This document shows, piece after piece, positions 2,017 through 26,221 of a DNA stretch of 64,000 bases. The notes under the pieces are model-generated. The model saw only the letters and a list, made by a program, of their open reading frames with translations, was not told the origin of the DNA and ran no database searches. The DNA is from Phoronis australis (lineage: Eukaryota; Animalia; Phoronida): assembly GCA_002633005.1 (NCBI GenBank), contig NMRA01000694.1, forward strand, positions 123,742 to 187,741. The letters are read 5' to 3'. The position numbers and the translations under genes are program-made. How positions within the stretch are numbered: the stretch's first letter is position 1; every line of letters begins with the position of its first letter.

Positions 2017-2563
2017 TCCTATGAGCAGAACAGTTTAACCAGTATGGCGTTATCAGAACATACTGCAGAGACACTACGGGTTATAGATGACTGGTGGCAA
2101 TGACAAACCTCTAATATCCAATACATCTCTTACTTCGTGCCTAGCTCNTTCTTTGAGCTGGCCATTGTTAGGGTGCATCAGTGCTTTGGACCATTTTTGC
2201 GGGATGTTGTGACATGGAAAAATGGTGTTTACTTCCACAAAGGTCACGACAAGATATGGATGTCCAAAGTACGTGTTAATGACGATGTCATTCTACGACT
2301 TGCAGTGCGGGGTGAACAAGTTAATAAGTCGTTGTGGCCTAGTTTGATGAAAGCATACCACGCAGTTGTTGGTCTTTTAGTAATTAAGTGGCCGGGAGCT
2401 TCATATGACATCTTCTATGTTTGTCCTCATTGTCTATGCTCTGAAGTCGCTGAACCTACTTTGTATCCAGCACATGATCTGCAAAACTTTCTGTCTGGTG
2501 AAGAATTCCTACCGTGTGACAACAGTGATGAAGGGGTTCTAAAAGTGGATGAGGTTGTACCAG
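2017..2563 (+). CDS. Roco-DED gene exon A: C-terminal part of a COR domain (MFHAS1/LRRK-like Roco protein); 5' boundary uncertain
   Basis: Translation YISYFVPSxFFELAIVRVH...WKNGVYF...WPGASYDIFYVCPHC...C matches the COR-B pattern (F.P.G.F.RL.VR, WKNG, WPG..Y....CPxC). Donor CAG|GTAATA after 2563 (phase 1). Candidate acceptor TTTTAG at 2016 includes an in-frame TGA at 2101-2103; alternative acceptor CCTAG at 2144. Confidence 0.75.
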
Positions 2564-3308
2564 GTAATACACTAGTAAAGTCACTATTGATCAAGTTATC
2601 TAGTTAATGAAGAACTGACTTTGAAGTGTATGTACAGAAAAATATGGCCACCTGTTGCGATAAGTTCGGAGGACTTTAATTGGATGATTTAGAGCACCAA
2701 TTGTAAGTGTCTTGACGATTCTATCTCAAAGTGGATGTAATTTCTGTGCTTGGAAAGACCTTAGAATTCTGGAGTTGGCTTGTCATGAAAGGCCATTATA
2801 TTTGACAAATTATATTGTCAAGGAAAAGTGAGCTGTCATTATATCCAAGTATAGAGGATCCTAACGAGTCTGTTTCATGAAAAGTGACTTAAATAATTTG
2901 TTCAAATTTTCACAGTAAACAACAGTTATGGATATAACACGAGTGTTAAGTATATTTCAGAAATAGTTATGTTGAGCATGAGACTAAATTTTTATCTTAA
3001 ATCATTTTTCATAAAACAGATCTCAGTAGTATGGCAAAGGAAGTGGTTGAAATCAAAAGTCTAGTTTTAATCAAGTTGCTAAACTGTCAAGCAGTAAGAT
3101 TTGGGTCGAGGGCTTACACAAAACATTTTTTCTGTGACTTGTGTGTGACCTTTGAGAAGTTCCAAATTCTCCCTCTTAATTCTCTAACTTTAATAATTTA
3201 GTAAAGGTCATGAAGTTGTAAATATCTTGTAGCCTGTTTAAGAAATTAAACGCGTGTATCGACAAATTTAAATATGACCATGAACGTAAGGTTTTAATTT
3301 GTCTTCAG

Positions 3309-3379
3309 GTTCCTTTTCTGTACCAACTGAAGGACAGCTGTTTGAGGCACAGAAAGGTTTTGACATTTGTCAGCGAAAG
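3309..3379 (+). CDS. Roco-DED gene exon B (GSFSVPTEGQLFEAQKGFDICQRK)
   Basis: TTCAG| acceptor and AAG|GTAAGA donor. Phase 1 in, phase 0 out, open frame continuing exon A. Confidence 0.75.
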
Positions 3380-4130
3380 GTAAGAAGTAATTTAAACTGC
3401 ACTAGTTTTTTATAAACGCTCTAGTTTCCTAGCCAATACTCGACCGTTTTAGGATTGATTTCCGATTCTAGTTTTCATGACTTGTAATGTTCGCTTCTTG
3501 TTGGATTTGTTTTTGCATTGTCCTACCTTGCAGTGTCGCACTAAGCAGGTCGAGGTAACTTTTGGGCAGATAAAATTGAGTGCATAATTATTCTTCTCAA
3601 GGTGTGTTAGATTACAGTTTGAAATCCTTAATGTGCCCGTCCCTGTTTGTATTTTAAAGACGGTATGTGGTGTGGTGAAATCATTGCACAATATTTTAAG
3701 TATCAGAATTCCCATAATGTCCCTAATGTTTGTAAAGTTGTGTAGGAAGACATAATTCTGCGAACTTTTACCTCCACACGTAAATAACTTCTATTTCTAC
3801 TAATGAATCAGTCAACCACTTAAAAATGTATGATAACATGCACCAGATTTGTGTTCCAACTCTCTCATTACATGCTGTATAGGTCAAAAGTGACAAAATG
3901 ACCCGAAATTCTCTGTCATAAGGGCTTAATTGGTGGAATTTATTGTAAAATTTATCGTGAGAGTAGTCTCATGACCGAGAATGAAGGGAAATGAACAGAA
4001 AGTTTGTATGGTGGCTCGAAGTAAACAATTCTTTAATCAGAGTTTTACCGCTTTTATGGTTATTACTGTCATGACGGGGAAACGGTATTTTGTTTGATTA
4101 GTTTTGTCTTGCAGTGACTGCACAACTGAT

Positions 4131-7100
4131 TATTATGTGCCCACATAATATTTATATGAGGTCGTATATTGCCATCATGTCTGTCTGGACGTCCAGGTGT
4201 CTGGCATTCGGTGTCCGTAGCCGTATCTCCTAAACCCCTTAAAGGATCTTGATGAGATTTAGCAGATGTGTTTCTATGATACTAACGACAAATGACGACG
4301 AATTTCGGACCTCTTCGACTACCAGTGTGCCCCCTAGTGGCAATTTTAGTTTTTCATGCGTACCTCTGTATCTTCCTAGTCCTCAACGGATGCTCATAAA
4401 ATTTGGCAGTTCGGCATCTATTAAAGAGATGATGCCATCCTCCCATATTTTCGGATGGGTTCGAGGTACTTTGCACCACCTAGTGGCCATTTTTATTGTT
4501 TTCAAGTCTGGTTTTTGGAATCAACCAAACCGCTCTATTGATGATTTTAAAATTTGACATATATTATGTTCTTACTGTGAAGAGGGTGGATTACAATGAT
4601 TTTCTGATGACTTCAGTTACTGTGGTGCCTCCGAGTAGTAGTTTTGTTTGTTTTTGCGCCCATGACTTTATCTCTTAAATGCTATACAGGATCTTTATTG
4701 AATTTTGTTGGTGTATTTACATGAAGTTGACAACAGAGGACAACGACTTTTGGACGTGTCAGGAGAGCTGAGGATGATTTTCCGACGACCTCGACAACTG
4801 TGGTGCCTCCTAGTGACAGTTTTTTTACGCCCATGACTTTATCTCTTACCCTCTGCAGTATCTTTATTATGCGCCCACATATTTGTGGTCACACATTGCC
4901 GTTATCTCTGTCTAGGCGTCCGGCGTCTGCGGCTGTATCTCCTAAACCCCTTGCAGGATCTCATTGAAATTTGGCAGGTGTGTTCCTGTGGGGATGATGA
5001 CAGAGGGCGACAAGTTTCAGATCAACCATTATACCACTGTGCCCCCAAGTGGCAATTTTAGTTTGCCTCTGTATCTTCAAAGGTCCTCAACTGATTTTCA
5101 TGAAAGTTGGCACCTAAGCATCTTTTAATAAATTCACGCTATCCACTCGTTTTCGGATGGATTTGAGGCATTTTGTGCCATCTAGTGGTCAATTTTACTA
5201 CTTTCGAGTCCTTTTTTGGCATCCGCCCCTCTAACAACCAAACCAATCTAAGGATGATTGTGCAAAATGGCGTGTATGTTCTTACTATGAAAAGAATGGT
5301 TGATGATGATTTTCCGACATCGGCTACTATCATGGCACTTAGTGATGGCAGTTTTGTTTGTTTTTGCACCCATGGCTGTATCTCCTAAATGCTCTACAAG
5401 ATCTCTTTTAAATTTAGCAAAGGTATTTATATGAAGTTGACAAAGGACGACGATGACTGGTGTGCCCCCTGATATTAATCTTGAATTATTTTTTTAATTT
5501 ACTTCCGCATTAATCTGTATCTTCAAAGGTCCTCAACAGATTCTCATAAAATTTGGCAGATAGGCATCTATTAGTGTGTTGATGCTATCCTCGGGTTTTC
5601 GGTTTGATTCGTAGTACTTTACTGCATTTGAATCTTGTTATTTGGCGTCTGCCCCTCTGTCAACAGTTACCACTCTTAGGATGGTTGTGGAAATTGTCGT
5701 GTATGCTCCTTAAAGGGGAAAAGGAAGTATGATGATTTTCCGACCCCGTCATCTTCTGTGACGCCTCTTAGTGGTAGATGTTTTTAGCGCCTATAGCCTC
5801 CTAGTGGCAATTCCATTTTTTCCGTTTTGTTTGGTTTCTCAGAGGTTCCTTGATGGATTTTTATGAAATAGCCTTGATGTCACGTACCAGTTTTTGGATG
5901 AATTCGGTGCATTTTGCTCCATGTAGTGGCCATTTTTATGTTCCAAATAAACACTCCTAGAAGCACACCATTTGCAGTGCATTCGTAGGCACATTTCAAC
6001 ACACCACATTGCTCTTGTTATCTTTAAATGTGGTTGCATATTTATGTCATCCTTGGGTGTCCGGGTGTCGGTGTCTGCTATTGTATCGCTTAGACTCATT
6101 GGAAAATCTTTGGCATGTGTGCTGATATGAAGCTGATGACATGCTGTCGAATTTTCGGATTGACCTCCCATGTTCTGTTGTGACAATTTTAGTTTTTCGC
6201 ACTTTCCACTCTATCTTCCTAATTCTTGGATGAATTTTCATGAAATTTGGCAGATAGGTTTCCATTATGAAGGCAACAACACCTTTTCATTTCCAGATGT
6301 TTTTGGTCATTCTGCGCCACCTAGCGGTCGTTTTTTTAAAGTTTTCAATCTGGTTTTGATAAACCGCTTGAAGGATCATTATAAAAATTGAGGAGACTGC
6401 AGCTGACGTTCATTTTCGGATGTGTTCGACAATTCTGGCACCCTCTAAATGTTTTTTTTGCGTCTTTAACCCTTCTCAAGAACACTTTGAAATTTGGCCA
6501 ATGTGTTCCTGTGGCCGATGAGTTTAAGTCCATTCTGTTGATTAGTGTGCCGCCTAGTTGCAAATTTATTTGCATCATGTTTTTGGCATCTGCCTCTTTA
6601 TCCACTGAACTGCTTAATAAAGGATATTTAAAGAAAGCTTGAAAGATATATGTTGGCGATGAAAAGACGTTGATTTTTGCATGAAAGTGACAACTGTGGC
6701 ACCTCCTGGTGGTGATTTTGTCTTTTCTGCATCATTGGCTGTATCTTCTTGCTCTTTTTGAAGGATCTTTGGGAAATAATGCAAGTGTTCGATTTGACCA
6801 CATGTGAAAAATCCTACATCGAGTATTAAAGTCACGCAATGATTTCCCAGAAATTCGTTTCAACGATTGTGGTGACTTTGAAACTTTAAATTGGCTTCAC
6901 TATAATTGTGACTACGACAGTGGTTATGACTTGGACGGTTCTCACTATGGCTGTACCCCCCAGTGGCAATTTTTGTTTTTGTATTTGCCTTTGTATCTTC
7001 AGAGTTCTTTGGCAGTTTTGATTAAAATTTGACAAACATGTTTGTGTTATGATGGCGATAGCATCTTTCCATTTAGGATGGATTTGACGTGTTCTGCATA

Positions 7101-7181
7101 ACTTAGTGTTCATTTTTTGTTGCCAGTAAACACCCCTAGAAGCACACTGTGAGTGCCTGCATTTCATCACTCTTTGTTGCT
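4131..7181 (+). mobile_element. Cluster of degenerate Helentron-associated (HINE/DINE-1-like) family A copies
   Basis: 5' motif TTATG(C/T)GCCCACATA at ~4133 and ~4868, followed by GTCC/GTCT microsatellite and ~150-bp units with CCNCCTAGTGG. 3' end GCACATTTCAAC..TTGCTCTTGTT at ~6018. Confidence 0.7.
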
Positions 7182-7311
7182 CAGCTCTGTTTTCTATCTC
7201 TGCTTACGATGGGATTTTTATGAATTACGGATTGTATTCCAAATACGATACTTGTCATGCAGAAGTAATGTAGTGCTTATTGGTAAACTTTTTTTATCAA
7301 TTGTGTTCTAG

Positions 7312-7384
7312 GCAAAGAAATGCTCCTCAGCAGAAGGTGGTACAATTCCCGGTTCTTCGAATATTGCCGGTACATCTACCTCAC
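7312..7384 (+). CDS. Roco-DED gene exon C (AKKCSSAEGGTIPGSSNIAGTSTS)
   Basis: TTCTAG| acceptor, phase 0 in, donor C|GTTTGT (phase 1). An alternative phase-1 donor at 7369 is possible. Confidence 0.6.
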
Positions 7385-8179
7385 GTTTGTATTTTTGCCT
7401 TTTTCTTTCAAATACTGTGTGGGAGGTTGTCTTCTTAACAATAAACTATGGCTCATGGAGCGTTGCATTAGTTAATGCTAATTATAAGATCTCAGATTGT
7501 ATGATATAAACCCTTAAGTTATCAAAAATAGGCATAGCTTCTTTAAATTTCTCCCTATGTATATATAAACATTATTGTAAAGTTGATTACTTGATTATTT
7601 TGTAAACAAAATTTTGTGTTGGAGCGACACATAACTAAGTGTTAAGATCTTGCATATTTTATTTAGAATCTCTGTTGCTCCTATCATACTTGGTGTTTAG
7701 TGCTGTTATTTGTGACTAAGTGTGCACACTTGCTATGTATATATGTTTTGTAAATATGTTTTTTTTGCAAAAATAAAATTAAAAAATTTTAAAAAATCTC
7801 AGGTTTTGAAAGTTGAAACATACGCTGCTGTATCGTATCTTTGAGACGTGCAATTTCAGTTTTAAACTTTATTTGTTAGAAGAATCAGTGTTGGTTATAC
7901 TTTGTCCAAAAGTAGGTGGATACATAAGCTTGGCAATGTGATTGGATCATACTCAGCATTCCTCTATCTCTTCAAGCCAGTTTGGTGCCATTATGTCTCG
8001 TACTACATGAATAGTGGCCTTAGTTGACGTTAAGCTCCCTAATTTTTTGGTCTTTCACGGCTTCATTTTGCTCTGAATGTTCTTCAATTCCGAATCTAAT
8101 GGTCAATTTTCATCATACTGAACTATATGTCGGTGCCAAATTTCAGATGCTGTAAGTTCGTCAAATCCATCGTTGTTAG

Positions 8180-8232
8180 GCAAAAGAAAATCTGCCATTG
8201 ACGACGCAGAAGCTGGCATTATTCCACCTAAG
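8180..8232 (+). CDS. Roco-DED gene exon D (RKRKSAIDDAEAGIIPPK)
   Basis: TGTTAG| acceptor and AAG|GTTTGT donor. Phase 1 in, phase 0 out, bridging exons C and E. Confidence 0.6.
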
Positions 8233-8781
8233 GTTTGTCAAAATGAAATTATGAGCTGGTCAGCTAGTGAAAATAAACCGAGTGACTTGAGTGTCTAACA
8301 GAATATTTATTGTAAGTTTAACAACTGTGTAATCCCAGCCATGAGTTTAAGCCAGACTACAATAAGCAGCAACTGCCCTGTAGTCATTTTAGAAGACCAG
8401 ACTTCATGTTAAATTAAGCTTTCCTTCATATAATATCATATTGTATAACAATGAGTGGTTGTTAACAACTCAAAGGGGGATAATCTGGAGACAATTTGCT
8501 GTAATGTGTTCTCGTGCATAGTAAATGGTGCAAGCTGAATTGGTTCCGTGATTTTCAGTAGTCACTTTTTGTTGGTTATACATTTTATATTCCTTCAAAG
8601 CATGACAATAAAGTCATTTTCTGATTCTTTTTGTATAACCTTTCTTGCATATGAAGTGAGCCAGTTCATTGCTGCAAGTGAAGCAGTGAAGTAGAACCCA
8701 TTTATATTTTCTATCAACTAACTGATAAAAAATGAAGAGTTTTGCTACATTCTCCCCAAACATTAAATTTTTGTTTTCCAG

Positions 8782-8830
8782 ATTCCTGTAGGTGTGGCCT
8801 CAACCAGCACTGATCCTTCCACGGCCACAG
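8782..8830 (+). CDS. Roco-DED gene exon E (IPVGVASTSTDPSTAT)
   Basis: TTTTCCAG| acceptor and CAG|GTATGT donor. Phase 0 in, phase 1 out. Confidence 0.7.
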
Positions 8831-11540
8831 GTATGTAATCTATTCCATTCTTTGGTTGTTATGACCTTTTGCTATGTCTTATATAATGTCAAGGTTGAAA
8901 CACTGTTCAAGGGTTTTGTTTGTATACTGAATTCAGTGACTACACATCAGTGGATCAGATGTCATTTAACCTTTATTTCAACTGACTGTTGCTCTAAGGT
9001 TTCTAATAATCATTTTGCCAGAGTATAGATTTTGATATCAATATACTGGTATTAGAGCCTATGATTGAATAAAGCAGTTGTGTAAATGTTGTCAAATGAA
9101 CCTGAAACGTTACTCAAGGTGAGCGCTGTGTTCCAGTCAAGGCAACGTGATAATGCAGCGAGTTGATGTTCCATGGATGTAAACTGTATTTATAATGGTG
9201 CGAGTGGATGATACAACTGTATTTTAGTCTGGCAAAGTGAAAGCCTTATGAGTGGATGATTCATGGGTGTATACTGTATTTTAGTCTGGAAAGTGAAAGC
9301 CATACGTTTTTCCAAGAACCTCATTCTGGAAGCATCCCCTTTAAAAAATTGTATGCTCCTATGTTAATGTTTAGGAGGAGCTAAACGACAATGTTAGTCT
9401 TACAGAATCTTAGGTAAACAATTTGCATTTGTGTTATGTGAAAACAAAAGTTTCTGGCAAATAGGTGATCTTTCCACTAATGACTTACCTCATAGGCTTA
9501 CATAGCATGCATCATGCAGTGTTATTCCCCAGCACCACGTCATGATACTTACATGATTGGTTAAACAGTGATTTTGCGACGGATCATTTTCGCCACAAAA
9601 CTTGTTTTTAAAAACAATTAGCAATTTTCAACCTACTTCCCATTCACATCACCGCTGTATGTTGTGTTCCTAACTTATTTGGATAAACAATGCCAGAGAT
9701 GTGGAATTAGCCTGCAAGTTTCAATTTAAATGGGATAAGGATCAATTTGAAGAAATCTTTGGAATTTCTCCATTTGTCACGTTGTCAGCTGAACCTGTTC
9801 TATCCACATCCCAGTCTCAAATGGGGCTTAGTCATCAGTTGGGTGACTCTGTGCTTCACTAGGTCAAATAGTGAAATAATTACTGGAGTTTTTTTCAAGG
9901 AAAGGATTCAGGCCCTATTTTCCATTTTCGTTTTGGAGCATAAAATCTGATGGAAACCATAATATCTGAATAGAGAAGTAAAAGTTAGACTATGTGAATT
10001 TTCAAATTTGGTCAGGTATAGGTACATTATTTTTTCAGCAAAAACGAACCTTGAACTATTCATTGGAAAGTAATTTGCATCATGGCTTATCAGTTAATTA
10101 TAGGCATCACTACCTTACAATAGATGCTGTGCCTGAAGGAATGTGGATACAAGGAGTCCTGATGGATGAATTGTGTTTAAAGCATCCTCACAACATGATA
10201 GTGACTTTCCATATTAGTACTGTTAGACTCGCAAGGAGTTATGAACACAAATCTCAACCATGCTGCCTTCTCTGTTTATATTACAAAAAAAAAACAATTC
10301 TACTGATTCCTGGTAGAAGCATATCATTTGTCTACTTAGGTTAACTGCCAAAATAACCGATGCTGACACACCAAGGGGGGACAGGGCTTAATATTTACAT
10401 TTGTTGCAAATTGCTGGAATTCATGACGTTTCATTTCTGCATGACTAAGGCCACATGTCGAGCTGTGTTACTTCAGTGTGGGAAGGTTTTCAAAAGTTTG
10501 CAAACAAACCTGTGTTAGTGCAAGCTGTCAAGTTCAGTAGGTACAATTTAATACATTATGAATATTATAGCTGAACTGCAGTCTAGGCCAATGCTAGACT
10601 GTCTTGAAATCAGATAGACTTGTGTACAAAATGTTATTGTGGTGCTGAAATGTCAAACCAGAAATGCTGGAAGACAGTTTGCTAAACAGATCAACTAGTT
10701 ATCGTATACCAACTACACCTTTGTCCATAGATTCGTTAGAGACTGTTGGACAGGCCATTCAGAATGCAAGCTGGATGTTGGCCAAAATTCAGGTCTGAGT
10801 TTTAATTGGCTTGCACTTCATAGCATGGCCTATCTTGAGAGAGAAAAGGTATTAGTTAAACTCAAACAGCCACAAATAATACCCACAGATTATTGGGTTG
10901 TATTCCATGTCAATACTACAGGCCATTCATTGCCTGTTCTGTATTTTCCTGGTGTTATAAATTGCAGCACAAAAGCTATTTTTCACGCAACATCTAGCAT
11001 GCCTTTGACTGGTTAAAAATCCTGTTATCAGCTGCTGCATAAAATTGCTTGAACTGAACAGCTCAATACATCTAAAATATCAAAACCCCTGGAAGAAAGA
11101 TTTTAAGAGGTCAGTGCTTTCGTTCATCCAAGGGGAAAGGTGGCTGTGCCTTCTGAGAGAGGAATATTTCGAGGTGAGGGCAAAATTCTTCCTCCCGATC
11201 ACCATCTATAGAACCCCCATCATGTTGCAGGCCCTCACAGACTATGCCTTAAGTAGCCAAAACTAACTTTTGTGCTCCTTCGAATTGAGGGGAATTTTTG
11301 CTCATGATGAGTTGAGTTTTGTGGTTTTTCAATACTTTTGAGAGGAGAATGAGGCGAATATTGGACCCCAAAATCAAGGGATTAATGCCGTGGTGTTTAC
11401 TAATAAAAGTTGTGCCAATGTCCAGTCATAAAAATGCACTTACTTTAACACAGAGGATTGACAGAAATATATTTAGCGCGGCCATATATTTGACCCGTCT
11501 TTGTGCGTCCAAATTTACAGGACAGGTTCTTGAGTGCATT

Positions 11541-11830
11541 TTTTTATGCACTCGCGTATGTGGGTGCTTTATGCCATCATCCCTGACTGTCTGGCATCCG
11601 CTGCTGTAACTCCAAAACCACGCAATAGAAGTGCATGAAATTTCGTAGACCTCTTCCTATCATAGATGTGACGAGCAAACCTGCGGACGGATCCGACTAC
11701 TGGTGTGCTCCTTATTGGCAATTTAATTTTTTACCTTTGTTTCTGTATCTGGCAAACAGGTATCTGTTAAGCAGATGAAGCTGTTATAACTGTTTTCAAG
11801 TCTGTATTTTTAGTGTGCGCTTCTCTTTCT
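11541..11830 (+). mobile_element. Degenerate HINE family A 5' fragment
   Basis: TTTTTATGCACTCGCGTATGTGGGTGC palindromic start followed by a first-unit remnant. Confidence 0.55.
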
Positions 11831-12965
11831 TTGAAACCAGTCTAAGGACATTAAAGAGGCATATGTCACAGTTCCTATGGCTAAGAACATGGTGTGCAAT
11901 TGGCCAAGATAGTTTCATATGCCATTTGAGTGACGGAGGCTACCTGGATCATTTAGTAGTGCACATTGACCATAGAATGTAGTTTTTATGCACCCACATA
12001 TTTATGTATGGCCGCATTATGCCGTCATCTCCGTCCGTCCGGCGTCCGTCCATCTGGTGTCCAGCGTCCGCTGCTCTATCTCCAAAACGCCTTGATCTAT
12101 GTTCATGAAATTTTGCACATAGGTTTCATCTGTGGATGGAACGGCACGAGCGAACTTTCGAACAGATCACGCTACCGGTGTACCCCCTAGTGGCAATTTT
12201 ATTTTTTTATGTTTACCTCAGTCTGTATCTTCAAAAGTCGTGAACGGATTTTCATAAAATTTGGTATATAGGCACCTATTAGTGAGATGACACTATACTC
12301 CCGTTTACAGATGGATATGACAAAGTTTGCGCCACCTATGTTCTAACTATGAAGTGGAGGGTTGACGATGATTTTTCGACTACTGTGGAGCCTCCTAGTA
12401 GCAGTTTTGTTTTTTTGCGCGTATGGCTGTATCCCCTAAACCGTTGGCAGGATCTTTACTAAATTTAGTAAGAGTATTTATATGAAGTTAACAACGGAGG
12501 ACGACAACTTTCATACGAATCTGACAACTGGTGTGCCACCTAGCGGCAACTTTATTTTTTTACTTTTACCTCTGTATCTTCAAAGGTCCTCAAGGTATTT
12601 TCATAAAATTAGGCACACAGGCATCTGTTAAAGGCGAAGGCCACCCTTTTCCATGTCATTTTGAGCTAAAATAAGGTTGGTTGGTTATCCTAGACATATT
12701 TTCCACTTAATTACAGCTTTTCATAATTTTATAAATTACTCGTCCGCTACTCCGGAAGTGACGTTTTAGGAGGCAAGCGTTTCCCGCCACTTGGTTTTGC
12801 GTTGACTTTATCTTGCGAATCTGTTCTATTCTACTTTTGTTTTCTGCTGTTTTTCAACAATTGTCGCCACCACTTTCCATCGGCGAGTATTCTGCGGCAA
12901 GATAGGTTAGTAGAGAACTCAACTTCGTTGGATTTAGGGATTGTTTAGTGTGTTGTAAGCTGAAA

Positions 12966-13280
12966 ATGGCTGGAGTCGGTGACCCGTATCACAGTGACAG
13001 TAGTGTGAGTGACGGAGACCTTGTTCACAGCAGTGGTGACGAGGAATTTTTGCACGGACATTCAGTGGGTGGGTACATGTTTGAGCCCGAGTATAACGAG
13101 GCAGAGTACGCACAGGCACAGGCAGCTGTTGAGAGAAACGAGGCGGCTACTGAGGACAGTAGTCGGTGGTGACACATCTTGGTGTAAATGCACTGTGTGC
13201 GTTGTTATGCCTACCTCAATGAAATGCTTGTGCTGTTCAGAGTTCGACGAGGCCAAGCCACTACTGGACATGGTTAAGTG
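12966..13280 (+). pseudogene. KolX accessory protein N-terminus (P2X7 cytoplasmic-tail-like Cys cluster), frameshifted and truncated
   Basis: Acidic leader with GYMFEPEY, then WCKCTVCVVMPTSMKCLCCSE, the WCxCxxCxxMxxxxxCxCCxE signature. Confidence 0.85.
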
Positions 13281-14054
13281 GACCTCCGGCATACCACGGA
13301 CAGAGGAACAACTGTCCCACTTGCCAGAGTGTCCCGCGACACACTCCCACTGGATGGTGACCTGAGCACCCAAACTGCTTACAGACGTGTCGTGTGACTC
13401 CCTCGCCACACACCTGGCACCTTCTAAATAGCTCCAACACTTTAGACAAGTCCACAATAAACTTATCAAAGTTTGGCTCACCGATCTGTTCACTGGACGA
13501 CGAACTGTCCTCTTCACTGGGTGTCGAACTGAGCCTGTAATCACTCCCACTACTCAATATCGCTGCAGGGCTGCTTAGAGGCTCTGGGCTGGAGAAAACA
13601 GCACAGGGCGAATCACTACTGGTTCCAGGAATTGCAAGCTCTGGGGTACGTTCGGAGGCACGGGTGACAGTAGATGAAGTGCCTCCACTGGCTCCAGTCA
13701 CTGTACTGGCCACAGCTCGCGAGGCTTCTCGCTTCAAAAACGCACTTCTCGGGGGTGGCGACGGGGCACTGCCGGGAATAAACACAGATGAAATGGCATC
13801 CTTCTTCAGACGTTGTTTCGCAGGGACCTTCATCAGTTCAGCGTACAAAATCCCTTTCGTAATCGGACGGCAGAAAGTGCTTGCCGCTGCTCCACTGCTT
13901 TGTACGTTGCGTGGACGGGTAACGCTGCATTCTTCACACGAACGAGCCAAGTACGGCAAAGTGTGTCATCCATCGGAAAGCGATGCAAAGGTACGCCCAA
14001 AGCGCGCGTGAGCCGATAATTAGTACATCCTGGTACGCAGCAACAGTGTGGCAT
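13261..14054 (-). pseudogene. Kolobok transposase N-terminus (THAP domain, acidic linker, Cys/His region), frameshifted and truncated before DDE
   Basis: MPHCCCVPGCTN...LHRFP.D..LCRTWL..VKN, then KHF and LKKDAISSVF in shifted frames, then KFIVDLSKVLELFRRCQVC and WECVAGHSGKWDS. Confidence 0.85.
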
Positions 14055-15392
14055 GTTGACTGACTAGTAAATGAAAGCAAACGACGACAGAACTTAACAC
14101 AACCGAGGTAGAACAATGACTGACTCGGCAGCTCTCACAGTCAGACTATATGAAAAGAAATTGGCGCGAAATGCTTGCCTCCTAAAACGTCACTTCCGGA
14201 GTAGCAGACCAGTAATTAATAAAATTACGAAAAGCTGTAATTAAGTGGAAAATATGTCTAGGATAACCAACCAACCTTATTTTAGCTCAAAATGACATGG
14301 AAAAAGGTTGCCTTCGCCTTTAATGAGATGACGCTATCTCACCGTTTTCAGATGGATTCTACCTAGTTTGCGCCATCTAGTGGCCATTTTTACTGTTTTC
14401 GAGTCTGTTATTTGGCATCCGCTCGTCTATCAACCAAACCGCTTTCAGGATAATTTTGAAAATTTGCACTATTGTATGATTTTACTATGATGTGAACGGC
14501 TGACGACGATATTTCGACGAGTTCGACTACTGTGGCTCCTTAGTGGCAGTTTATTTTGCGTTCATGGCTGTATCTATTAAACCGTTTGCAGGATCTTTAC
14601 TTAATTTAGCAAGAATATAGGCATCTATTGGTTAGGTGACACTATTATCCTGTTTTTGGATGGAATTGAGGTTTTTTGCACCCCTTGGTGGCCATTTTTG
14701 CAGTTTTCAAATATTGTTTTTAGCGTCCACTCCTCGATCAACCAAATCATTCTAGGGATGGTTTTGAAAATTGACGTATATGTTTTGAGTGTGAAGATGA
14801 CGTTTGATGATGGCGACTGACTACTGTGGCGACATTGGGTTTATCACCCTGTGGGCATTTTTGCCTGCTGTGAGCCGTACTTCACTCTTAAACCGTGATT
14901 CAGTGAAAGGCTATAATTACCACTCACAAATGTCAGCTCTGAAATCAGGACTGTCTGAGGCTCTTCCTCGGCTTCACTCGTTGAAGATGCTGTTGTGAGA
15001 GGTTTGAGTTCGTATAGCCTCAAACATGCAGTCTGGTGATATGGCGAGGTGTACTTCATTACTTGTTTCGCCCTGTCGATTTCACTTCCATCTGCATGTC
15101 TGTCTTCATAATACTTGTCAAACTCACCATCTAAGTCTTCGTAACATAAAAAATCACTCTCTGCCATTGTATATAGGCTGTCAGCTGTGGTCACCGTCTT
15201 CCACTGATTGACATCATGTGTAGGATAACCAAAAAATCATTTTTTTAAATTTAAAATTCCTCAATTACTCACCAAAATACGTTTTTCTTTAGTTAGATTT
15301 TATGTTATTAGATTATTATACATGGTCTAAAACCTCAAAAAATGCAATGCTATCATGACTCTAAAACGCTGTTACGGTTTTATGCCAAATTA

Positions 15393-16795: not shown

Positions 16796-17998
16796 AAATG
16801 AATTAGTTTTTGATGTGGACCTCTAGTATACGCTATGTCTGTAGAATTAGAGAGAGCTCATTTTGAAGTTGTTCAAACATAATTATTTGGATTTATGAAG
16901 CTTTAAAAAAGAATTTGAGTTATTTTTGTAAATACCCTATTTTTGCAACTACCACACCAGACTTGTAATCTTTTGTAACCATACCACAGCTTAGTGATCA
17001 TGCTACGTTCAAAATTAAATGAAAGCTACCTTTATGCAATGGAACTACAAAATATGCGAAGTTCATCAGAAGGTAGGCCGAACTTAAGTGTCTTCATGGT
17101 GCAAACGGACAATTCCAAGCATTAATTTGACTTAGACACAGCCCTAGACCTACCGGAGGTAACTGTTTGCCTAGGACGAGATGAGTGTGCATCTGAGTTA
17201 TGAACCTGAGTTTTTTAATCAAAATATTTTGTTACAAGATTAGAAAAGCGTAAACAATGCTATCGAGTCGACCTAGTCAGAGACTTTAGTACATGTGTGG
17301 TCTGTAATCTATGACCTACTTTACTCCAGGAGTCACACCACTTGTGACCTACTTTTCCTTCAGCGAAATTTAGCAGACGACAGAATAAAAATGTCAGTGA
17401 ATCTTCACTGATTTTGTTCGAAAGATCCTGAAATCTATGGAATCGTACAGACAATTCGACTTTAAGGTACATACTCAGCTACATGAACATATCATATCTG
17501 TGGCCTTGTCATTTTTCAGGAAGGTGAACCCCGAGGGGTTGTTCGGATTCAGTTTCGCTGGCTCTGATCGATCGAACACTTATTTTTCATTGCCACCTTC
17601 ACAAATTCCCATATCCTGAACGTACGATTCTCAGTTGAAAAGCATCGCCTGTTGTCTTTTTCGAAGCGTTCAAATAGTGCAAAAAACACTCATCGATTCC
17701 ACCAAGAACATCGTTTAGCGACCGTGTATTTGCCTGTGACATGTTGTTGGTTTGTCGGGTATCACGTAACTTTTCTCATAGGGGCGGGGCTTGCGAAAGG
17801 TCAATCCCTAATTGATTTTGGGGTCTAATATCGAGCTCATTCTTCTCTGAGAAGTATTGAAAAACCACAAAACTCAACTCAACATGACTAAAAATTCCCC
17901 TCGATTTGAAAGAGCACAAAAGTTAGTTTTGGCTACTTAAGGCATAGTCTGTGAGGGCCTGCAACATGATGGGGGTTCTATAGATGGAGATCGGGAGG

Positions 17999-18404
17999 NN
18001 NNNNNNNNNNNNNNNNNNNNNNNNNNNNNNNNNNNNNNNNNNNNNNNNNNNNNNNNNNNNNNNNNNNNNNNNNNNNNNNNNNNNNNNNNNNNNNNNNNNN
18101 NNNNNNNNNNNNNNNNNNNNNNNNNNNNNNNNNNNNNNNNNNNNNNNNNNNNNNNNNNNNNNNNNNNNNNNNNNNNNNNNNNNNNNNNNNNNNNNNNNNN
18201 NNNNNNNNNNNNNNNNNNNNNNNNNNNNNNNNNNNNNNNNNNNNNNNNNNNNNNNNNNNNNNNNNNNNNNNNNNNNNNNNNNNNNNNNNNNNNNNNNNNN
18301 NNNNNNNNNNNNNNNNNNNNNNNNNNNNNNNNNNNNNNNNNNNNNNNNNNNNNNNNNNNNNNNNNNNNNNNNNNNNNNNNNNNNNNNNNNNNNNNNNNNN
18401 NNNN
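17999..18404. other. Assembly gap
   Basis: Run of N. Confidence 1.
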
Positions 18405-18822: not shown

Positions 18823-19954
18823 TTGTGGTAGTGGATGTGTTTACGACATGTATATGGTATTAATAACGGAGGACGACGACTTTCGGACAGATCTAACTAC
18901 TGGTGTGCCACCTAGTGGCAACTTTATTTTTTTACGTTTACCTCTGTATATTCAAAGGTATTCAACGTATTTTCATAAAGTATAGCATACAGGCATCTGT
19001 TAATGAGGTGACGCTATCTCACCATTTTCAGATGGATTCGATCTAGTTTGCGCCACCTAGTGGCTATTTTTACTGTTTTCAAGCCCTCTTTTTGGCGTCC
19101 ACCCCTCTATCAACCAAATCTATTGATGGTTTTGAACACTGACGTACATGTAAATGTTCTCAGTGTGAAGAGGACGTATGATGATGGCGACTAACTATTG
19201 TGGCGCCTCCTAGTGGTAGTTTTGTTTTGTTTTGCACCCATAGCTGTGTGAAGATAACAACAGACGTGGACAACTTTCAGGTGGATCCAACAGATTTTCT
19301 GCCCACTAGTGGCAATTTCATTTTATTCTGTTTTCCATTGTTTCTCTGAAGTTCCTTGACAGATGTTTATGAAATATGTTATGTTCCCGTTTTTTGGATG
19401 GATTGTACATTTTTGCGCCATCTAATGGCCATTTTTATGATACAAATTAATAACCCTAATAGCACACCATTTGCGATTTATTGGTGGGCACATTTCAACA
19501 CTCCGCGTTGCTCTTGTTACTGTTTTTGAGTCTGTTTTTGGCATCCACTTCTCTATCAACCAAAACCATCCTAAGGATGATTTTGAAGGTAGTCGTATAT
19601 GTTCTCAGTGTGATAAGGACAGTTGACGATGACAATTTTGAATTCTGTGGCGTCTCCTAGTGGTAGTTTTGTATGTCGCCCATAGCATTATTTCCTAAAC
19701 ACACTGCAGGATCTTTATTAAACTTAGTGAGGGTATTTATATGAAGTTAACAATAAATGACAACAACTTTCAGGCGTACGCTGTGCCCCTTCGTGGAGAT
19801 GGATTGGAAGTTTTGCGCCATCTAGTGGCCAAACAAATAAACAACTCTTGAAGCACACGTTTTGCGGTGCATTCTTGTTTGCATTTCAAGCCTCTGCATT
19901 GCTCTTGTATTTGCACTGTAATTGGGATGCCCAATACTCCACATTGCTCTTGTT
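18823..19954 (+). mobile_element. HINE family A internal units and repeated 3' ends
   Basis: Same ~150-bp units. 3' motif GGGCACATTTCAACACTCCGCGTTGCTCTTGTT at ~19485-19518 and further TTGCTCTTGT ends at ~19908 and ~19954. Confidence 0.75.
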
Positions 19955-20341
19955 TACGTTGTTCTTCCTAGGAAGGTCACTAGCATGTGGCTTTTAAGCG
20001 TCAGTGAAGAATCAAAGAATGTTCGAAATCAAGTATTTCTCTGTCAGCGTCGCCAACTCTACTTTGGAGTAAATTTTTGTAACAACTCATTGAAGTTTGT
20101 TAAATTGGCAAGCATGCATGCAACTAACGCTTTGGCCAAGAGAGTTTCAGATGTGATGTGAATGACACAGACTGCTGGGAGCATTCAGTAGTGTGCATTG
20201 ACCGTAGAACGTAGTTTTCATGTTCCTGATAAACCTGCAGCGTATAAGTAAAAAAGATGTTAGTTACTAATTCCGCAGTTGTAGAAATTCACACACAGCT
20301 ATCCTTAGTAATTAACATGGTATTTTGTTCACTGTTTTCAG

Positions 20342-20453
20342 CGATCTCGCAGTCTACAAAAAAACTTCACTACAAGCTACTGAATGTTGTTCATGACCAT
20401 CTTCTTGACAGCGATTTTGAAAAACTGAAGTTCCGCTGTGGAGAATGGATTAC
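20342..20453 (+). CDS. Roco-DED gene exon F: N-terminal half of death effector domain
   Basis: TTTTCAG| acceptor and AC|GTAAGG donor (phase 1 in, phase 2 out). YKLLNVVHDHLLDSDFEKLKFRCGEWI fits DED helices 1-2 (LL..+...L...D+..LKFLC.D.I). Confidence 0.85.
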
Positions 20454-21429
20454 GTAAGGAAATTCATTTTTTCATTCACAATGAAGGACCAAGTATTTGG
20501 GATGATTGTAACAATACATTGTTCAACAAGTAATATTTCAAATTAAAGTTTAACTGTAAAACTGTTATGATAACATTTTTATTCGTGAAGTGCACTTTAA
20601 GCAGGTAGATAGCAAGGATTTACTTGCGCTTTTAAACTGCAAAATTGTGTTTTTAAACCCAGCCATACTAAAATTTGATTCCTCTGCCTTAGTGTAATCT
20701 TATGAATAAAGATGACGCTGTATCTAAAATGATAATTCAGTTGACTTTATGCAGGGCTTTAGAAAAATGTTTAAATTTGGTTTGTAACTTAGGAACACCA
20801 TACTCACATACTGTGCTTTACTGCGCCTTTTAAAAATGCTGGTTGGAATTGTTTTCACATTATTCCATGGAATGCTGACTACAATTAAGTGAATGTTCCT
20901 TTGAAAATATGTTTTGATCATGAATTCACATACTCATAAAAATGTGGACCCGATGCGAATTGTTGTCACTCTCTGTATGCTGGTTAATTTCGAAAACCTC
21001 GTGGGGAATCTTTGTTAAAATTGGCAGGATTATGGATGATGACAGTTTGTATATTCAGACTGGTCTGACTGCTGCTGTGCCCCTTAACGGCAATGAGGAT
21101 TTTACATTTTCCTTTGTATTATTGGGATTTCATGGTATTCTTTTATGAAATTTTGTAAATAGGTTTCTGTGAAGGATTTGACATAAAGTTAACTGCACAA
21201 TCTAGTGACCATATTTATTATCGCCCTTGTACTTTCCACTCGAAAATTGGTAGTTGTGTTCCTCCTGAGAAGAGCTTGACGTCTGATTTTAAGAGACAAC
21301 ATCTTCACACTTGGAGATGCATTCATAATTATCAATGCTTCCTAGTGGCCATTATATTATTTATAAGTCTGTGGCATCTGCCTTTTCATCTTGAAGGATC
21401 ATTATGAAAATTGAGATGTTTTAAGATTA

Positions 21430-22390
21430 AGTAGGCTTTATCTTGGGAAGGAATATGAACTAAAATATTCGGGTACTTGACGACCTATTTTATTACATTG
21501 AGAAAGTTAGCAAACTCGATTGATGTTATTAATTGAGTTTGAGACAGCGATTCTTTAGCATGGGACTTCATAATCAAAACTCCTTCCTTTTTAATTTTGG
21601 TTGTTCCATTAAACGTTGGGTTGGGGTGTTTTACAAAAACATAAAATCGAGCATTATACTTAATGGACAACTGTCACGTTCATGGTTTAATATCTGACAC
21701 GGAGTTAGACAAGGTGACCCTATATTCCCCTATCAGTTTATTATTTGTGCTAAGGTAATAGCTCTTATGATCATCTGTGATAGTAATTATCAAGGGTATT
21801 AGAGTGAGCAGGGAGGAACTTTGTATTTCTCAGTATGCGGATGATACGTCTGTTAGATGGATATGAAGTTTTGTTGGCGTCTTTTGAAGGTTTTGAAAAC
21901 ATTTGCTGATTTCTCCAACCTTCACGTCAATACTGAAAATACAAAAGCTGTTTGGTTTGGTAGTAATGCTAACAGTCGGAAAAATTACTACTAATGAATG
22001 CCTGTCATGAACTAAACGGATTATATTTACTTGAAGTTGATTTTCAAGTCAACCTAAAGGACATGGCTGATCAGAATTATTTACCAAAGTTAAATCAGGA
22101 CACAATTCCTATTTAGAAATGGGTCAAGACCAAATCTCACTCCTTTTGGAAGGGTTTCTGTGATCAAATCTCAGGTTGTGTCAAAAAATATTCACCTTTT
22201 GTTATCCCCACCAAGTCTGTCGCAATATATTTTGACTGAACTTGGTTGCATTTTTTTCAATTTATTTGGCAAGGATGTAACAATAAAAGTAAATGCGCCC
22301 ATGCTGCTATAGCAAAGTAGATTTCAAAATGATCAATATTTTTAATTATTGTAAAGCTATTACATTAAAATGGGCAACTAAATAATAGCC
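21430..22390 (+). pseudogene. Decayed L1/Tx1-clade LINE reverse transcriptase fragment
   Basis: Frame-broken motifs GFILGRN..NIR, DSLAWDFI, FNFG.SIKRWV.VFYKNIKSSIILNG, GVRQGDP, ISQYADDT, KTKAVWFGS, LTPFGRVSVIKS, FIWQG. Confidence 0.85.
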
Positions 22391-22597
22391 AGTGTCAGAA
22401 TAAATATTGATTAAGTAATTAGTAAGAATAGATCCATTTTAAGTTGCCCAAACTTATGTGCATATGTACTTTTAAATCATGGGGTCAGACTTGTTGACGT
22501 GTACTTTAACGTCAAAATATATTTTTAGACGGTGTTTACAACTTCGGGTTCTGGGGTCAAAGTACTCTAGAGATTCTAGAAAATTCTGAGAACAAAT

Positions 22598-23227
22598 TGT
22601 AACAACCAATAATATGAGTGGATATGATCATGTGGTTTTATTAGCCAATCACTAAATAAGTAGAATGTTATATTATGGGCTGAAATCAACAAGATAATCA
22701 GATGCGCTATAGTAGTTGAAGCATAGGGACTTGCTACGGTGAACAGAAGCAATTGTATGACTGAGCCATCTCGTGGAAGATTCTAGAAAGGATCTTGGCA
22801 TGGGCAAGGGTTAACGAACAGGAAGTTAACTAAGAGCTTGTCACTTGCATCATGGGTAGTAAGATACTACCTGAAGTGTTGCATCACCAGAGACGGTGAC
22901 CAGCAAGTATACTGTTGCTATACAGTGTGTGTGTAGTTCGAAGATTCACCAACAGGACAGACATCCAACAAGTGGAGAGTCCTAGCTTGGATAGCAGATA
23001 AGACATTTGATTATTTGGGTTGATTGATTAAAGTATTCTTTAAAGAGGGCACTAGCGTAGTTACTTTTCTTTGTAGTTGATTACTTAATTAGTTATAATT
23101 TTCATTTGTCTAATTAGGGGTTATCATATAATAAATTAATTACTGGATTTGATTATTCACTTTCCATCTATGCACAATCTCAAAGCATAGCTACCTTTTA
23201 AACAAACCCACAGTCAATCGTCTGACA
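22598..23227. mobile_element. Possible solo LTR
   Basis: TGTAAC...CTGACA bounds with LTR-like composition. No TSD match and no partner in the window. Confidence 0.25.
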
Positions 23228-23983
23228 GCCAGTTTTTCTAAATAATCATCTCATTTGTTATATTCGTTGTATCCAGAAGTTCAAGGTTTTGCTAAATTTG
23301 GTGTTAATTTTTATAAACGTGAAATACCAAATATTTGTAGTCAATACTGGAAGGATTTTTTGAAACTCTCATCTTCCTTATCGGTGCAATAAAAATAGAA
23401 AACAGATTTTCTTAACCAGGCTCTGCGTATAATGATGATGCTTGCTGTCTGTTGAGACATTGAAACACCTTTTTCGGGAGTGAGCGTGCATGTAGGTTAA
23501 AAATTTCTGGACTTGTCTTAGCTGCCAGGTTAGTGAAAAGTGTGCTGGTTGCCATGTTGACACTCTCTCGTACAAAGCAGTAACCTTTGGTATTGGTAAC
23601 ATTACAGGAATTTCTGTCTTACATGTTATTACTTTTGGGAAACAATTAATTCTAAATGTAAAGGTGGAAACTTGCATGATAACACCTTTTTAAATTTCTT
23701 CAATGCTTATAATTACGATCCTGAATAGCTTGTAAAAGCTCAAGTATGTTAAACTTCAACAAAAATGGGGAAAATTTGGAACCTTTTTTGTGAAGTGGTG
23801 TGATTGTGGGTGAACTTGAGTGTGGCTGATGTTAGTTTTTGTTTCACATTTTTGCAACCATGACATATTGTACCGGTATTCTCAAATAGTAAATTCACAG
23901 CAAATGGTTGAAAAAAATGGTAGATTTGCTCCTTTTGAGAAGAACAGGAACAGGTTCGAGTGCCGTGTTCCTCCCTTCTGGCA

Positions 23984-24664
23984 TTTTTATGCGCCCACAT
24001 ATTTATATGTGGACGCATTATGCCGTCATCTCCATCCGTCCATTCGTCCGTACGGGCGGCGTCCGTCCGCGGGTGTCCGGCGTCTGGCGTCCACTGCTCT
24101 ATCTCCAAAACCCTTTGACATATGTTCATGAAATTTGGCACATATGTTCCATTCATGAATGGGACGGCATGTGCGAACTTTCGGATGGATCCGACTACCG
24201 GTGTGCCCCCTAGTGGCAATTTTAGTTTTTTACGCTTACCTTTGTATCTTGAAAAGTCCTGAACGGATTTTCATGAAATTTCGTATGTAGGCACTTATTA
24301 GTGAAATGACGCTATCCTCTCGTTTTCAAATGGATTCGACATAGTTTGCGCCACCTAGTGGCCATTTTTAGTGTTTTTGAGTCTGTTTTTGTGCGTCCAC
24401 CCCTCTATCAACCAAACCGCTCAAAGGATGATTGTGAAAATTGGCATGTATATGCTTACTATGTAGAAGACGGTTGACGATGATTTTCCGACTATTTCGA
24501 CTACTGTGGCGCCTCCTAGTGGCAGTTTTGTTTTTTTCGCAAAGTACAACATACTACATATATGCCCTCTACTGGCCACTTTATGGTACCAATAAACAAC
24601 CCTAGAAGGATACCGTATACGGTGCAATTGTGGGCGCATTTCAACGCTTTGCGTTGCTCTTGTT
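23984..24664 (+). mobile_element. Complete HINE/DINE-1-like element, family A reference copy
   Basis: 5' subterminal IR TGCGCCCACA in palindrome with TGTGGACGCAT, (CCGT)n microsatellite, three ~150-bp units, 3' subterminal IR TGTGGGCGCA and stem-loop CAACGC-TTT-GCGTTG. T-rich ends, no TSD. Confidence 0.88.
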
Positions 24665-24992
24665 GTGTTGGCAGGTGTATCTGATTGGCCCCTAACAGGA
24701 TGTTTGTGAATAGAGTTTGACAAGTGTTTTTTTGTGAATATGAACTTTCGGAAGAATCTTTCAACTGCTAATGTCTCCTACTCCTATTCGGAGTTCCCTA
24801 ACAGAATTTTATGAAATTTGGCAGATGATATTCAATTTTTGGACTAACTGGACACTGATTCCATATATTCTTCGGAGTTACTGTACAGATTTCCATGAAA
24901 TGTGACAAATAGATTCCTATTATGGAGACGGCATCTTAGGCTTTCCTGCATTTGGGCACTGATTCAGTATATATTCTGTACTACACCATTAC

Positions 24993-25914
24993 NCAAATGG
25001 GGGGAGGTCGGGAGGGGGGCAAACCCCCCTCCCGCCCAGGAAATTTTTCTGTTTTGACCTCTAAAAATCAAATATTTTCCTTGATTCCTGAAGTATTACC
25101 CAAGAAAAAAAGGCAAAAAAAAAAACACGGAGAACGTGTCAAACAGGAAAAACTGCAAATACCGAAGACTCGAACTCACGACCTTGCGTATAAAGCGCGC
25201 GTTCGTTACCACTACACCACCACGATTTGACTACTAATGTCATACTAAGAGACCTACTTGTTTATGGTCCACAGCGTTTGCGCGCGAAACCTACTTCTTT
25301 TTGTAATGCTTATTACACGTTTTGTGCCATCGATTCTTAACAAATTTGTCGTATTTAAAATAGTCTTAAAATGCCCAAAAGACCAAATCCGTTATTCGTG
25401 TTGGCAATAATGACCGGGGATTGCTTTGGAAATCGTCTTAACATAAAGTTTGACAAAGAGAGTATTGCGAGTTTCTGAGTGATTCACTAAGGCTTCTATT
25501 AAAATTCCCATCTTACCAGCAGCTTCTGTTTTTTCATCGTCACTCAGGTTCCATTTTCTTTAAAAAATGAAGTACATTTTCTTCATTGCACAGTGGAGCA
25601 GACGACGGAAACTGAGTCGTAGTGCGCAGCGCCACTGCCGGTCGCTTGGGATATCGCGGGAGAGCCTATACTTAGCCATAGTTCCGTTACGAATGCGCCG
25701 TGTTCCGAATTTGACACTTGAAATTGGATTTGAGCCCCCCCACACACTAAAACTGCACACATTTAAATCTTTTTTCATCCTTATACTTTTAATTACCGGG
25801 GTTAATTAATAAACTCAACATTTATTTCCCTACGCTCTTACTGTTTTATTTTTTTGCGGCAGCCAAGGGGGGGGGGCCCGGGCCCCCTGGGCCCCCCCCC
25901 TAAATCCGCCTATG
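24993..25914 (-). mobile_element. hAT-like MITE with 6-bp TSD (copy B)
   Basis: Reverse complement of most of 40566-41498. Terminus TAAATCCGCCTATG; CATTAC on both sides (24987-24992, 25915-25920). Left end hidden at N. Confidence 0.75.
25162..25224 (-). pseudogene. tRNA-derived (Val-TAC-like) sequence embedded in MITE
   Basis: GTGGTGTAGTGGTAACGAACGCGCGCTTTATACGCAAGGTCGTGAGTTCGAGTCTTCGG contains A box TGGTGTAGTGG and B box GTTCGAGTC. No acceptor stem. Confidence 0.55.
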
Positions 25915-26034
25915 CATTACCATTTTAATGAAACCAATAAAGCCTTTGAAGGATAGCATCATGGGCACATTTCAACATTTTGCTACACTCTTGTTTTTAC
26001 TCGTGGTCTTTGAAGTCTTAATGGTGTTTTACAG

Positions 26035-26221
26035 GCCTGCAGACCGGGAACGTATTAAAAACACTTTGCAACTGCTGGAGCAGCTGGAGAAGCAAGGTGT
26101 TATTGAAGTGGGGAATTACTTGAAGCTAATCGAACTGTTAGAAAAGCACAATCTGCTAAATATTAAGAAGGAGGTGGAGGCAATTGCTGAAAAAATAGCA
26201 AAACTTAAAGCGAATCCATAA
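26035..26221 (+). CDS. Roco-DED gene terminal exon G: C-terminal half of DED and stop
   Basis: TTTTACAG| acceptor, phase 2 matching exon F. PADRERIKNTLQLLEQLEKQGVIEVGNYLKLIELLEKHNLLNIKKEV fits DED (LE..G.I...N+..L.ELL). Stop TAA at 26219-26221. Confidence 0.85.

What the first reader, a model, noticed from the sequence alone, without database searches (positions are those of the whole stretch)
2017..26221. Roco (COR) protein ending in a death effector domain: candidate invertebrate GTPase-gated death/immune signalling receptor
Seen: seven exons with canonical splice sites and matching phases (1,0,1,0,1,2) over 24 kb join a COR-B-like segment to a ~90-aa linker and a complete DED. The ORF track shows only fragments of this. 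Established: Roco proteins (ROC GTPase plus COR dimerisation domain) include MFHAS1, LRRK and DAPK1. DAPK1 ends in a death domain, while DEDs characterise FADD and caspase-8/10 and assemble by homotypic polymerisation. Inference: a COR-to-DED fusion could couple GTP/COR-driven dimerisation directly to caspase-8/FADD recruitment. The DED RxDL motif is replaced by NLLNI, suggesting atypical partners. I cannot tell whether this architecture is already catalogued.
Basis: partly seen in the sequence, partly recalled or inferred. Interest (0 to 1): 0.78.

Follow-up and report, generated by a model that had tools for sequence, protein, structure and literature searches.

The report
Roco GTPase tail with death-effector domain
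This is the expressed back half of an invertebrate gene whose exons encode the end of an LRRK2-type GTPase module and likely splice on to a cell-death docking domain, so it is probably one more immune or cell-death switch of a design already listed in other animals.

Summary
Mostly real, with one correction. Exon A encodes COR-B (Pfam above cut-off). Exons F and G match consecutive halves of the DED profile. All six phases check out. RNA reads show joints A-B, B-C and C-D, and all exons A-F carry sense-strand reads. The deciding E-F joint was not among the joints displayed, so the fusion is inferred (about 85%). The start at 2017 is wrong: that frame has a TGA at 2101, and the mRNA leaves the window sequence at 2149 for an upstream exon that is not in the window. 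Roc, COR-A and any sensor domain are therefore unseen. The closest relatives are Lingula LRR-Roc-COR-CARD proteins (35% identity at best); none of 78 relatives has a DED. The design is known: a COR+DED sponge protein is listed in the source data of Kaur et al. 2021, and this scan earlier noted Roc-COR-DED genes in a feather-star genome. Likely mechanism: a nucleotide-gated Roco scaffold clusters its DED to recruit FADD or a DED caspase. Verdict: new member of a known kind, modest interest.

The parts
2017..2144 (+). Not part of the mRNA. Likely the 3' end of an intron (branch-like CTAAT 2111-2115, pyrimidine tract, AG 2143-2144); holds the in-frame TGA at 2101-2103
   Evidence: TGA. RNA departs from the window before 2149: 33 loose ends; X5 contig laid on only 35 letters of the bin. 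The acceptor itself is inferred from the sequence.
2145..2563 (+). Exon A, most of COR-B including the C-x-H-C...C motif; RNA-supported from 2149. 2147-2148 (one letter and an N) are likely an assembly blemish at a contig join
   Evidence: Pfam COR-B 28.4 bits; 38 relatives at E<=0.001; invariant W, C, H, C, C kept; joint to exon B. The start at 2145 is inferred.
3309..3379 (+). Exon B, linker (phase 1 to 0)
   Evidence: Joints A-B and B-C in RNA
7312..7384 (+). Exon C, linker (phase 0 to 1)
   Evidence: Joints B-C (shown as 3381-7314, skip 3932 = the intron length) and C-D at 7384/8147, GT..AG
8147..8232 (+). Exon D, linker (phase 1 to 0)
   Evidence: Joint C-D; depth about 43 in X8
8782..8830 (+). 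Exon E, linker (phase 0 to 1)
   Evidence: Depth about 37 in X8; one X5 contig lies on C, D and E by its shared depth value; D-E joint not displayed
20342..20453 (+). Exon F, first part of the DED (phase 1 to 2)
   Evidence: Pfam DED positions 3-28; sense-only depth in its bin, about 10, 6 and 2.5 if all on the exon; E-F joint not displayed
26035..26221 (+). Exon G coding part, rest of the DED and TAA stop (26219-26221)
   Evidence: Pfam DED positions 32-78, E 5.5e-4; not covered by either read lay
26344..26349 (+). ATTAAA, candidate polyadenylation signal
   Evidence: Only such hexamer in 26222-28200; untested

Best explanation
Exons A-G likely form the C-terminal 330 or so residues of one expressed Roco protein of the MFHAS1-like, kinase-free type, in which COR-B is followed by a 97-residue low-complexity linker and a single terminal DED that would act as an adaptor for immune or death signalling. 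Shown: COR-B, both DED halves, splicing from A to D, and sense-strand expression of A to F. Inferred: the E-F and F-G joints, and an upstream Roc, COR-A and probably LRR region, as in the closest relatives. Predicted mechanism: the Roc nucleotide state sets whether COR dimerises or oligomerises. In the clustered state, most likely GDP-bound or empty by analogy to the Chlorobium Roco, the flexibly tethered DEDs are concentrated and nucleate assembly with FADD or a DED caspase. The DED occupies the variable effector slot that relatives fill with CARD, Death, caspase, GT4 or OTU domains, and it probably arrived as a phase-1 exon cassette.
For: COR-B above cut-off. DED halves collinear, 14.2 + 20.6 bits; ESM Atlas named hits for exon G are all death-fold clusters, DED first, at lead-level scores of 0.84 or less. 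RNA joints A-B, B-C, C-D. The RNA upstream of 2149 reads in frame as F-H-F-S-R-Q-C-P-E-A, matching the F..CP.G.YE stretch that precedes this segment in Lingula relatives. Exon E has an open frame and a strong donor, and an X5 contig runs on about 114 letters past it (my arithmetic; exon F is 112). Non-repeat intron bins 9390-11869 and 16830-18069 have depth under 1 on each strand, while the exon F bin is sense-only and has no repeat match within the window. Of 6 phase-1 open exon candidates in intron E-F, 5 lie at 12311-13842, in or beside the transposon region, and the sixth is F. The top 7 relatives are Lingula MFHAS1-like or uncharacterised Roco proteins, 6 of 7 with a CARD. Four near-identical COR-B sequences carry caspase+GT4, GT4, OTU and Death tails. 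FADD and DED caspases exist in molluscs, annelids and brachiopods (PMC11463336 passages).
Against: The E-F and D-E joints were not among the joints displayed, and F-G was never laid. A 406-letter gap (17999-18404) lies in intron E-F. In-frame ATGs at 20257 and 20317 would allow a stand-alone DED. Roc and COR-A are unseen. 0 of 38 and 0 of 41 relatives carry a DED. The summed DED score, 34.8, is just under the 35.9 cut-off. RxDL is lost. The tree does not place this COR-B with the Lingula CARD clade or with any other. No functional data exist; human MASL1 complexes are with HSP60, not with death adaptors (PMC3995007 abstract).
Confidence: 0.55

Rival explanations
1. The fusion is real, but the single, eroded DED works as a brake or decoy, like PEA-15 or cFLIP. 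It would cap or sequester FADD or caspase DED assemblies, or signal to NF-kB, and not trigger death.
For: RxDL is replaced. By my recalled alignment to FADD (no call), only the Phe of the three-residue hydrophobic patch named in PMC4558505 is kept. No protease follows the DED, unlike the sponge COR+DED+TRADD-N+caspase protein. Single-DED regulators exist.
Against: Relatives carry CARD, Death or enzyme effectors in the same slot, which fits an output role. I had no set of invertebrate DEDs with which to show that this erosion is unusual.
Confidence: 0.22
2. The DED exons F and G belong to a separate small gene, or to a mis-scaffolded contig, and the Roco gene ends in an exon hidden in the gap or in the transposon.
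For: No E-F joint was displayed. In-frame ATGs at 20257 and 20317. A 406-N gap in the intron; single Ns at 47168 and 62908 have duplicated flanks, so this scaffold is patched from contigs. Exon F to exon A depth ratios differ between runs.
Against: Phases match, the strand matches, and F depth is of the same order as exons A-D. No other unique sense-strand exon shows between E and F. A death-fold domain after COR-B is the family norm (17 of 38).
Confidence: 0.11
3. It is a transcribed but decaying or GTPase-less paralogue of an expanded Roco family, with no switch function.
For: Long branch, 1.58. Of 11 exonic letter differences displayed between RNA runs and the window, 7 change the residue and 4 do not (the tables showed only the best-supported rows). 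The DED motifs are eroded.
Against: The frame is open over 330 codons across six introns. The TGA is not in the mRNA. Invariant COR-B residues are kept. Spliced reads occur in 3 of 3 raw RNA runs and in a contig from a second study. Many residue-changing alleles are also what a diversifying immune gene would show.
Confidence: 0.12

Closest known systems
Lingula anatina MFHAS1-like LRR-Roc-COR-CARD proteins (e.g. XP_013417012.1, XP_013404030.1; database entries)
   Same: Best sequence relatives of exon A (up to 35% identity); same COR-B type with the C-x-H-C motif; a death-fold domain at the C-terminus.
   Different: They end in a CARD placed almost directly after COR-B. Here it is a DED behind a 97-residue, four-exon linker. 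The tree does not group the window protein with them.
[quoted passage not shown]
   Same: A DED directly C-terminal to COR in an animal Roco protein.
   Different: There the DED is internal, followed by TRADD-N and a caspase. Here it is terminal. Homology between the two was not tested, because I did not hold that sequence.
Bacterial LRR-AP-GTPase-COR-effector conflict systems (PMC8195603 section 15, read whole)
   Same: Constant GTPase-COR core with a swappable C-terminal effector or adaptor (at least 24 kinds reported).
   Different: Prokaryotic, with EAD, TIR, caspase or GT4 effectors; no DED named in that section.
DAPK1 and human MFHAS1/MASL1 (PMC6337361 passages; PMC3995007 abstract)
   Same: Roc-COR proteins linked to cell death; DAPK1 ends in a death-fold domain.
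   Different: DAPK1 has an N-terminal kinase and a Death domain, not a DED. MFHAS1 has no C-terminal adaptor.

Membership tests
Roco proteins | Roc GTPase domain (G1-G5) | not testable with these tools
   No Roc exon in the window by tblastn with 11 relatives; no genome held; the gene continues upstream of the window.
Roco proteins | COR-A between Roc and COR-B | not testable with these tools
   Not in the window.
Roco proteins | COR-B | tested here: met
   PF25497 28.4 bits, cut-off 27; a profile including exon A hits Chlorobium-type Roco structures 3dpt and 3dpu at E 6e-4 and 2e-3.
Roco proteins | GTP binding and nucleotide-dependent oligomer change | not testable with these tools
   Needs biochemistry.
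MFHAS1-like LRR-Roco group | N-terminal LRRs and no kinase | tested here: inconclusive
   No kinase follows COR. The N-terminus is outside the window. Tree placement is unresolved.
Death effector domain | Full-length match to the DED profile | tested here: inconclusive
   The halves cover positions 3-28 and 32-78 of 82; rough sum 34.8 bits against a cut-off of 35.9. The joined domain was not scored against Pfam.
Death effector domain | Six-helix death fold | tested here: inconclusive
   Only exon G was folded, without an alignment: pTM 0.42, no significant structural match.
Death effector domain | E/D-RxDL charge triad | tested here: not met
   NLLNI at the motif's place (register from my recall of DED alignments). 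The motif is typical of DEDs but reported not to be the main binding surface (PMC4558505).
Single expressed COR-DED transcript | Reads joining every exon pair | tested here: inconclusive

The most novel reading that the evidence does not exclude
This is an apoptosome-like sensor built on a Roco GTPase. A variable LRR arm senses a pathogen cue, the nucleotide switch clusters COR, and a terminal non-canonical DED plugs directly into the caspase-8-type filament without a death receptor. It would be one member of a family in this genome that swaps effector cassettes at phase-1 introns.
Probability: 0.25. Interest if true: 0.7.

Novelty: new member of a known kind. Interest (0 to 1): 0.36.

Why it matters
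No animal Roco protein with a death-fold tail other than DAPK1 turned up as functionally tested in my searches. If the DED output is gated by the Roc nucleotide state, this small kinase-free protein gives a direct readout (DED filament or caspase activation) for the open question of which oligomeric state of a Roco protein is the active one. It also adds DED to CARD and Death as interchangeable tails, supporting the view of invertebrate Roco expansions as a parallel to NLR-type immune receptors. The architecture alone would not surprise a specialist in domain shuffling.

Tried and rejected
No genome is held, so upstream exons, paralogues and partner DED proteins could not be searched. Word-index protein searches with exon A and exon G among longer proteins found nothing, which is weak evidence. 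No run on record as RNA was listed as an indexed holder; RNA runs came by species label, plus one contig set guessed to be RNA. The first read lay was swamped by intron repeats and displayed no exon joints. In the second, the 96% filter nearly removed exon E reads in X6 and X7, which may be why D-E and E-F were not displayed. Rejected: premature-stop pseudogene or selenocysteine at TGA 2101, because the mRNA does not contain that stretch. The 7 extra Pfam bits gained from 2104-2148 (35.3 against 28.4) are best read as a chance extension into a pyrimidine tract; I cannot exclude a remnant of a paralogue at a contig join. A 13-letter motif from the upstream exon has no exact match in the window; 3 matches at 2 mismatches against 1.25 expected. 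PDB sequence searches with exons F and G gave no DED chain, only designed PPR repeats and chance rows. The fold of exon G alone was poor and found nothing significant. The ESM Atlas gave no usable hit for exon A. The COR-B tree (49 rows: the window, all 38 representatives, 10 of the 40 further hits; cluster members P0039-P0050 left out) left the window row unplaced. A Pfam scan of 89 further open frames of 80 aa or more found one weak hit and no caspase, FADD or Roc. No complex prediction was run.

Full report
Observation. The window is animal DNA of about 39% GC, rich in repeats; no whole genome is held. I rebuilt the seven exons. All have AG acceptors and GT donors, and the phases are 1,0,1,0,1,2 as reported. 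Exon A matches Pfam COR-B (35.3 bits on 2104-2562; 28.4 bits on 2149-2562; cut-off 27). Exon F matches DED profile positions 3-28 and nothing else (14.2 bits, E 0.054). Exon G matches positions 32-78 (20.6 bits, E 5.5e-4). The halves join in exact register. Their rough sum, 34.8 bits, is just under the 35.9 cut-off; the joined domain was not scored.

Read from 2017, exon A has an in-frame TGA at 2101-2103. RNA resolves this. In run X8, 33 reads end loose before 2149 with a consensus that differs from the window (agreement 0.99). The loose letters read in frame as F-H-F-S-R-Q-C-P-E-A, which matches the stretch before this segment in Lingula relatives. So 2017-2144 is not in the mRNA and the TGA is irrelevant. 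The simplest reading is an acceptor AG at 2143-2144, after a branch-like CTAAT and a pyrimidine tract, with two blemished letters at 2147-2148. Two of the six single Ns in the window have duplicated flanks, as contig joins do, so a mis-join is also possible. The upstream exon is not in the window, and neither are Roc or COR-A.

Expression and splicing. Three raw RNA runs of the same species label and one contig set were laid twice. Exons A-E carry first-mate-minus, that is sense-strand, reads; depth in X8 is about 30-43 on B-E. Displayed joints: A-B (14, 3, 3 reads and one contig), B-C (18, 5, 0; drawn two letters off, which I read as an allele at 7313, the skip equalling the intron length) and C-D (32, 2, 3; donor at 7384). 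D-E and E-F were not among the 15 joints shown; 26 were hidden; F-G lay outside the stretch. The indirect case for E-F: the bin holding F is sense-only (1.85, 1.19, 0.48; about 10, 6 and 2.5 if all on F) and has no repeat match within the window. Non-repeat intron bins have depth under 1. A 314-letter X5 contig on C, D and E runs on about 114 letters beyond E by my arithmetic, and F is 112. F is the only one of 6 phase-1 open exon candidates outside the transposon region. Against: a 406-N gap lies in this intron, and in-frame ATGs at 20257 and 20317 would allow a separate DED gene. I put the fusion at about 85%. The corrected model from 2149 is open for 330 codons.

Relatives. A full phmmer search with exon A gave 38 representatives at E<=0.001, best identity 35%. 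I scanned all 38 against Pfam (30, 8). CARD hit 11, Death 6, caspase plus GT4 one, GT4 one, OTU one, and DED none. The top seven are Lingula anatina proteins, six named MFHAS1-like and six with a CARD. Others come from lancelet, oyster, sea anemone, acorn worm and an annelid. A COR profile search among longer proteins returned 41 Roco proteins, mostly molluscan where named; 16 list Death and none lists DED. One protein is shared, so 0 of 78 distinct relatives carry a DED. A COR-B tree left the window row unplaced on a long branch, so I claim no direct descent from the CARD clade. The same tree has a fully supported clade of four near-identical COR-B sequences with four different tails, which shows that this slot is swapped.

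Mechanism. C-terminal COR forms the dimer interface in the Chlorobium Roco (PMC6337361 and PMC4104024, passages). That protein is a dimer when empty or GDP-bound and a monomer with GTP (PMC5714945, abstract), and loss of GTP binding raises the toxicity of human MASL1 (PMC3995007, abstract). DEDs assemble FADD, caspase-8 and FLIP through a hydrophobic patch, with RxDL reported to orient the patch (PMC4558505, passages). [quoted passage not shown] I therefore infer that a sensor arm and Roc nucleotide state control COR clustering, and that clustered DEDs on a flexible 97-residue tether nucleate a FADD or caspase assembly, probably from the GDP or empty state. Every step after the domain assignment is inference. 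RxDL is replaced by NLLNI, and by my recalled alignment only the Phe of the patch is kept, so a decoy or non-death role is the main rival.

What is known. Kaur et al. 2021 describe bacterial LRR-AP-GTPase-COR proteins with at least 24 swappable C-terminal effectors (PMC8195603 section 15, read whole). Their Figure 4 source data list an animal APGTPase+COR+DED+TRADD-N+caspase protein (Amphimedon XP_019855546.1) and COR+Death proteins from sponge and coral. That file was cut when stored, covers only TRADD-N proteins among animals, and file 13 was not searched, so more cases may be listed. Six full-text searches combining Roco, COR or AP-GTPase terms with DED or death-domain terms listed no paper devoted to a COR-DED protein; subscription papers are not covered. 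PMC5823876 (listing only) reports by its title that LRRK2 binds FADD. This scan has noted ankyrin-Roc-COR-DED genes in a feather-star genome and a Roco-protease in this genome; these are unchecked notes and I did not test them.

Verdict. A real, spliced, expressed gene fragment with a misdrawn 5' end, very likely encoding COR-B, a linker and a terminal DED. It is a new member of the Roco-plus-death-fold kind. The terminal single DED behind a long multi-exon linker is a minor variant that I did not find among 78 relatives or in print. Interest 0.36.

Noticed in passing
window 12300-14400: THAP-domain transposon inside intron E-F (THAP at 13836-14063, minus strand, E 3.6e-7); heavily covered by RNA reads on both strands, probably from many copies.
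   Followed up: partly
window 34826-35140, minus strand: A second THAP domain frame (E 5.5e-6).
   Followed up: no
window 49218-51094, minus strand: A 360-codon open frame and a CCHC zinc knuckle, likely the gag of a decayed LTR retroelement.
   Followed up: no
window 3309-8830: The linker is two cassettes, B+C (144 letters) and D+E (135 letters), each entering and leaving in phase 1, so either could be skipped in frame to change tether length. No skipped form was among the joints displayed.
   Followed up: partly
window 2149-8830: Alleles differ strongly: 7 of 11 displayed exonic differences change the residue, and the X5 contig has a three-letter insertion after 8202. Exon A depth is six- to fourteen-fold higher in X8 than in X7 or X6.
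   Followed up: partly
window 2422-2520 (exon A): A C-x-H-C...C motif is invariant across 10 aligned COR-B sequences; it may bind zinc.
   Followed up: no
window 46902-47445 and 62741-63063: Single Ns with duplicated flanks: false duplications at contig joins. 28128-29496 is also about 98% identical to 62305-63832.
   Followed up: partly
window 30287-30909 and 36551-36714: Tandem array of about 55-letter period with a related short copy.
   Followed up: no
P0023, P0033, P0034, P0038: Near-identical COR-B with four different tails: caspase+GT4, GT4, OTU protease, Death; P0023 is from Branchiostoma belcheri.
   Followed up: partly
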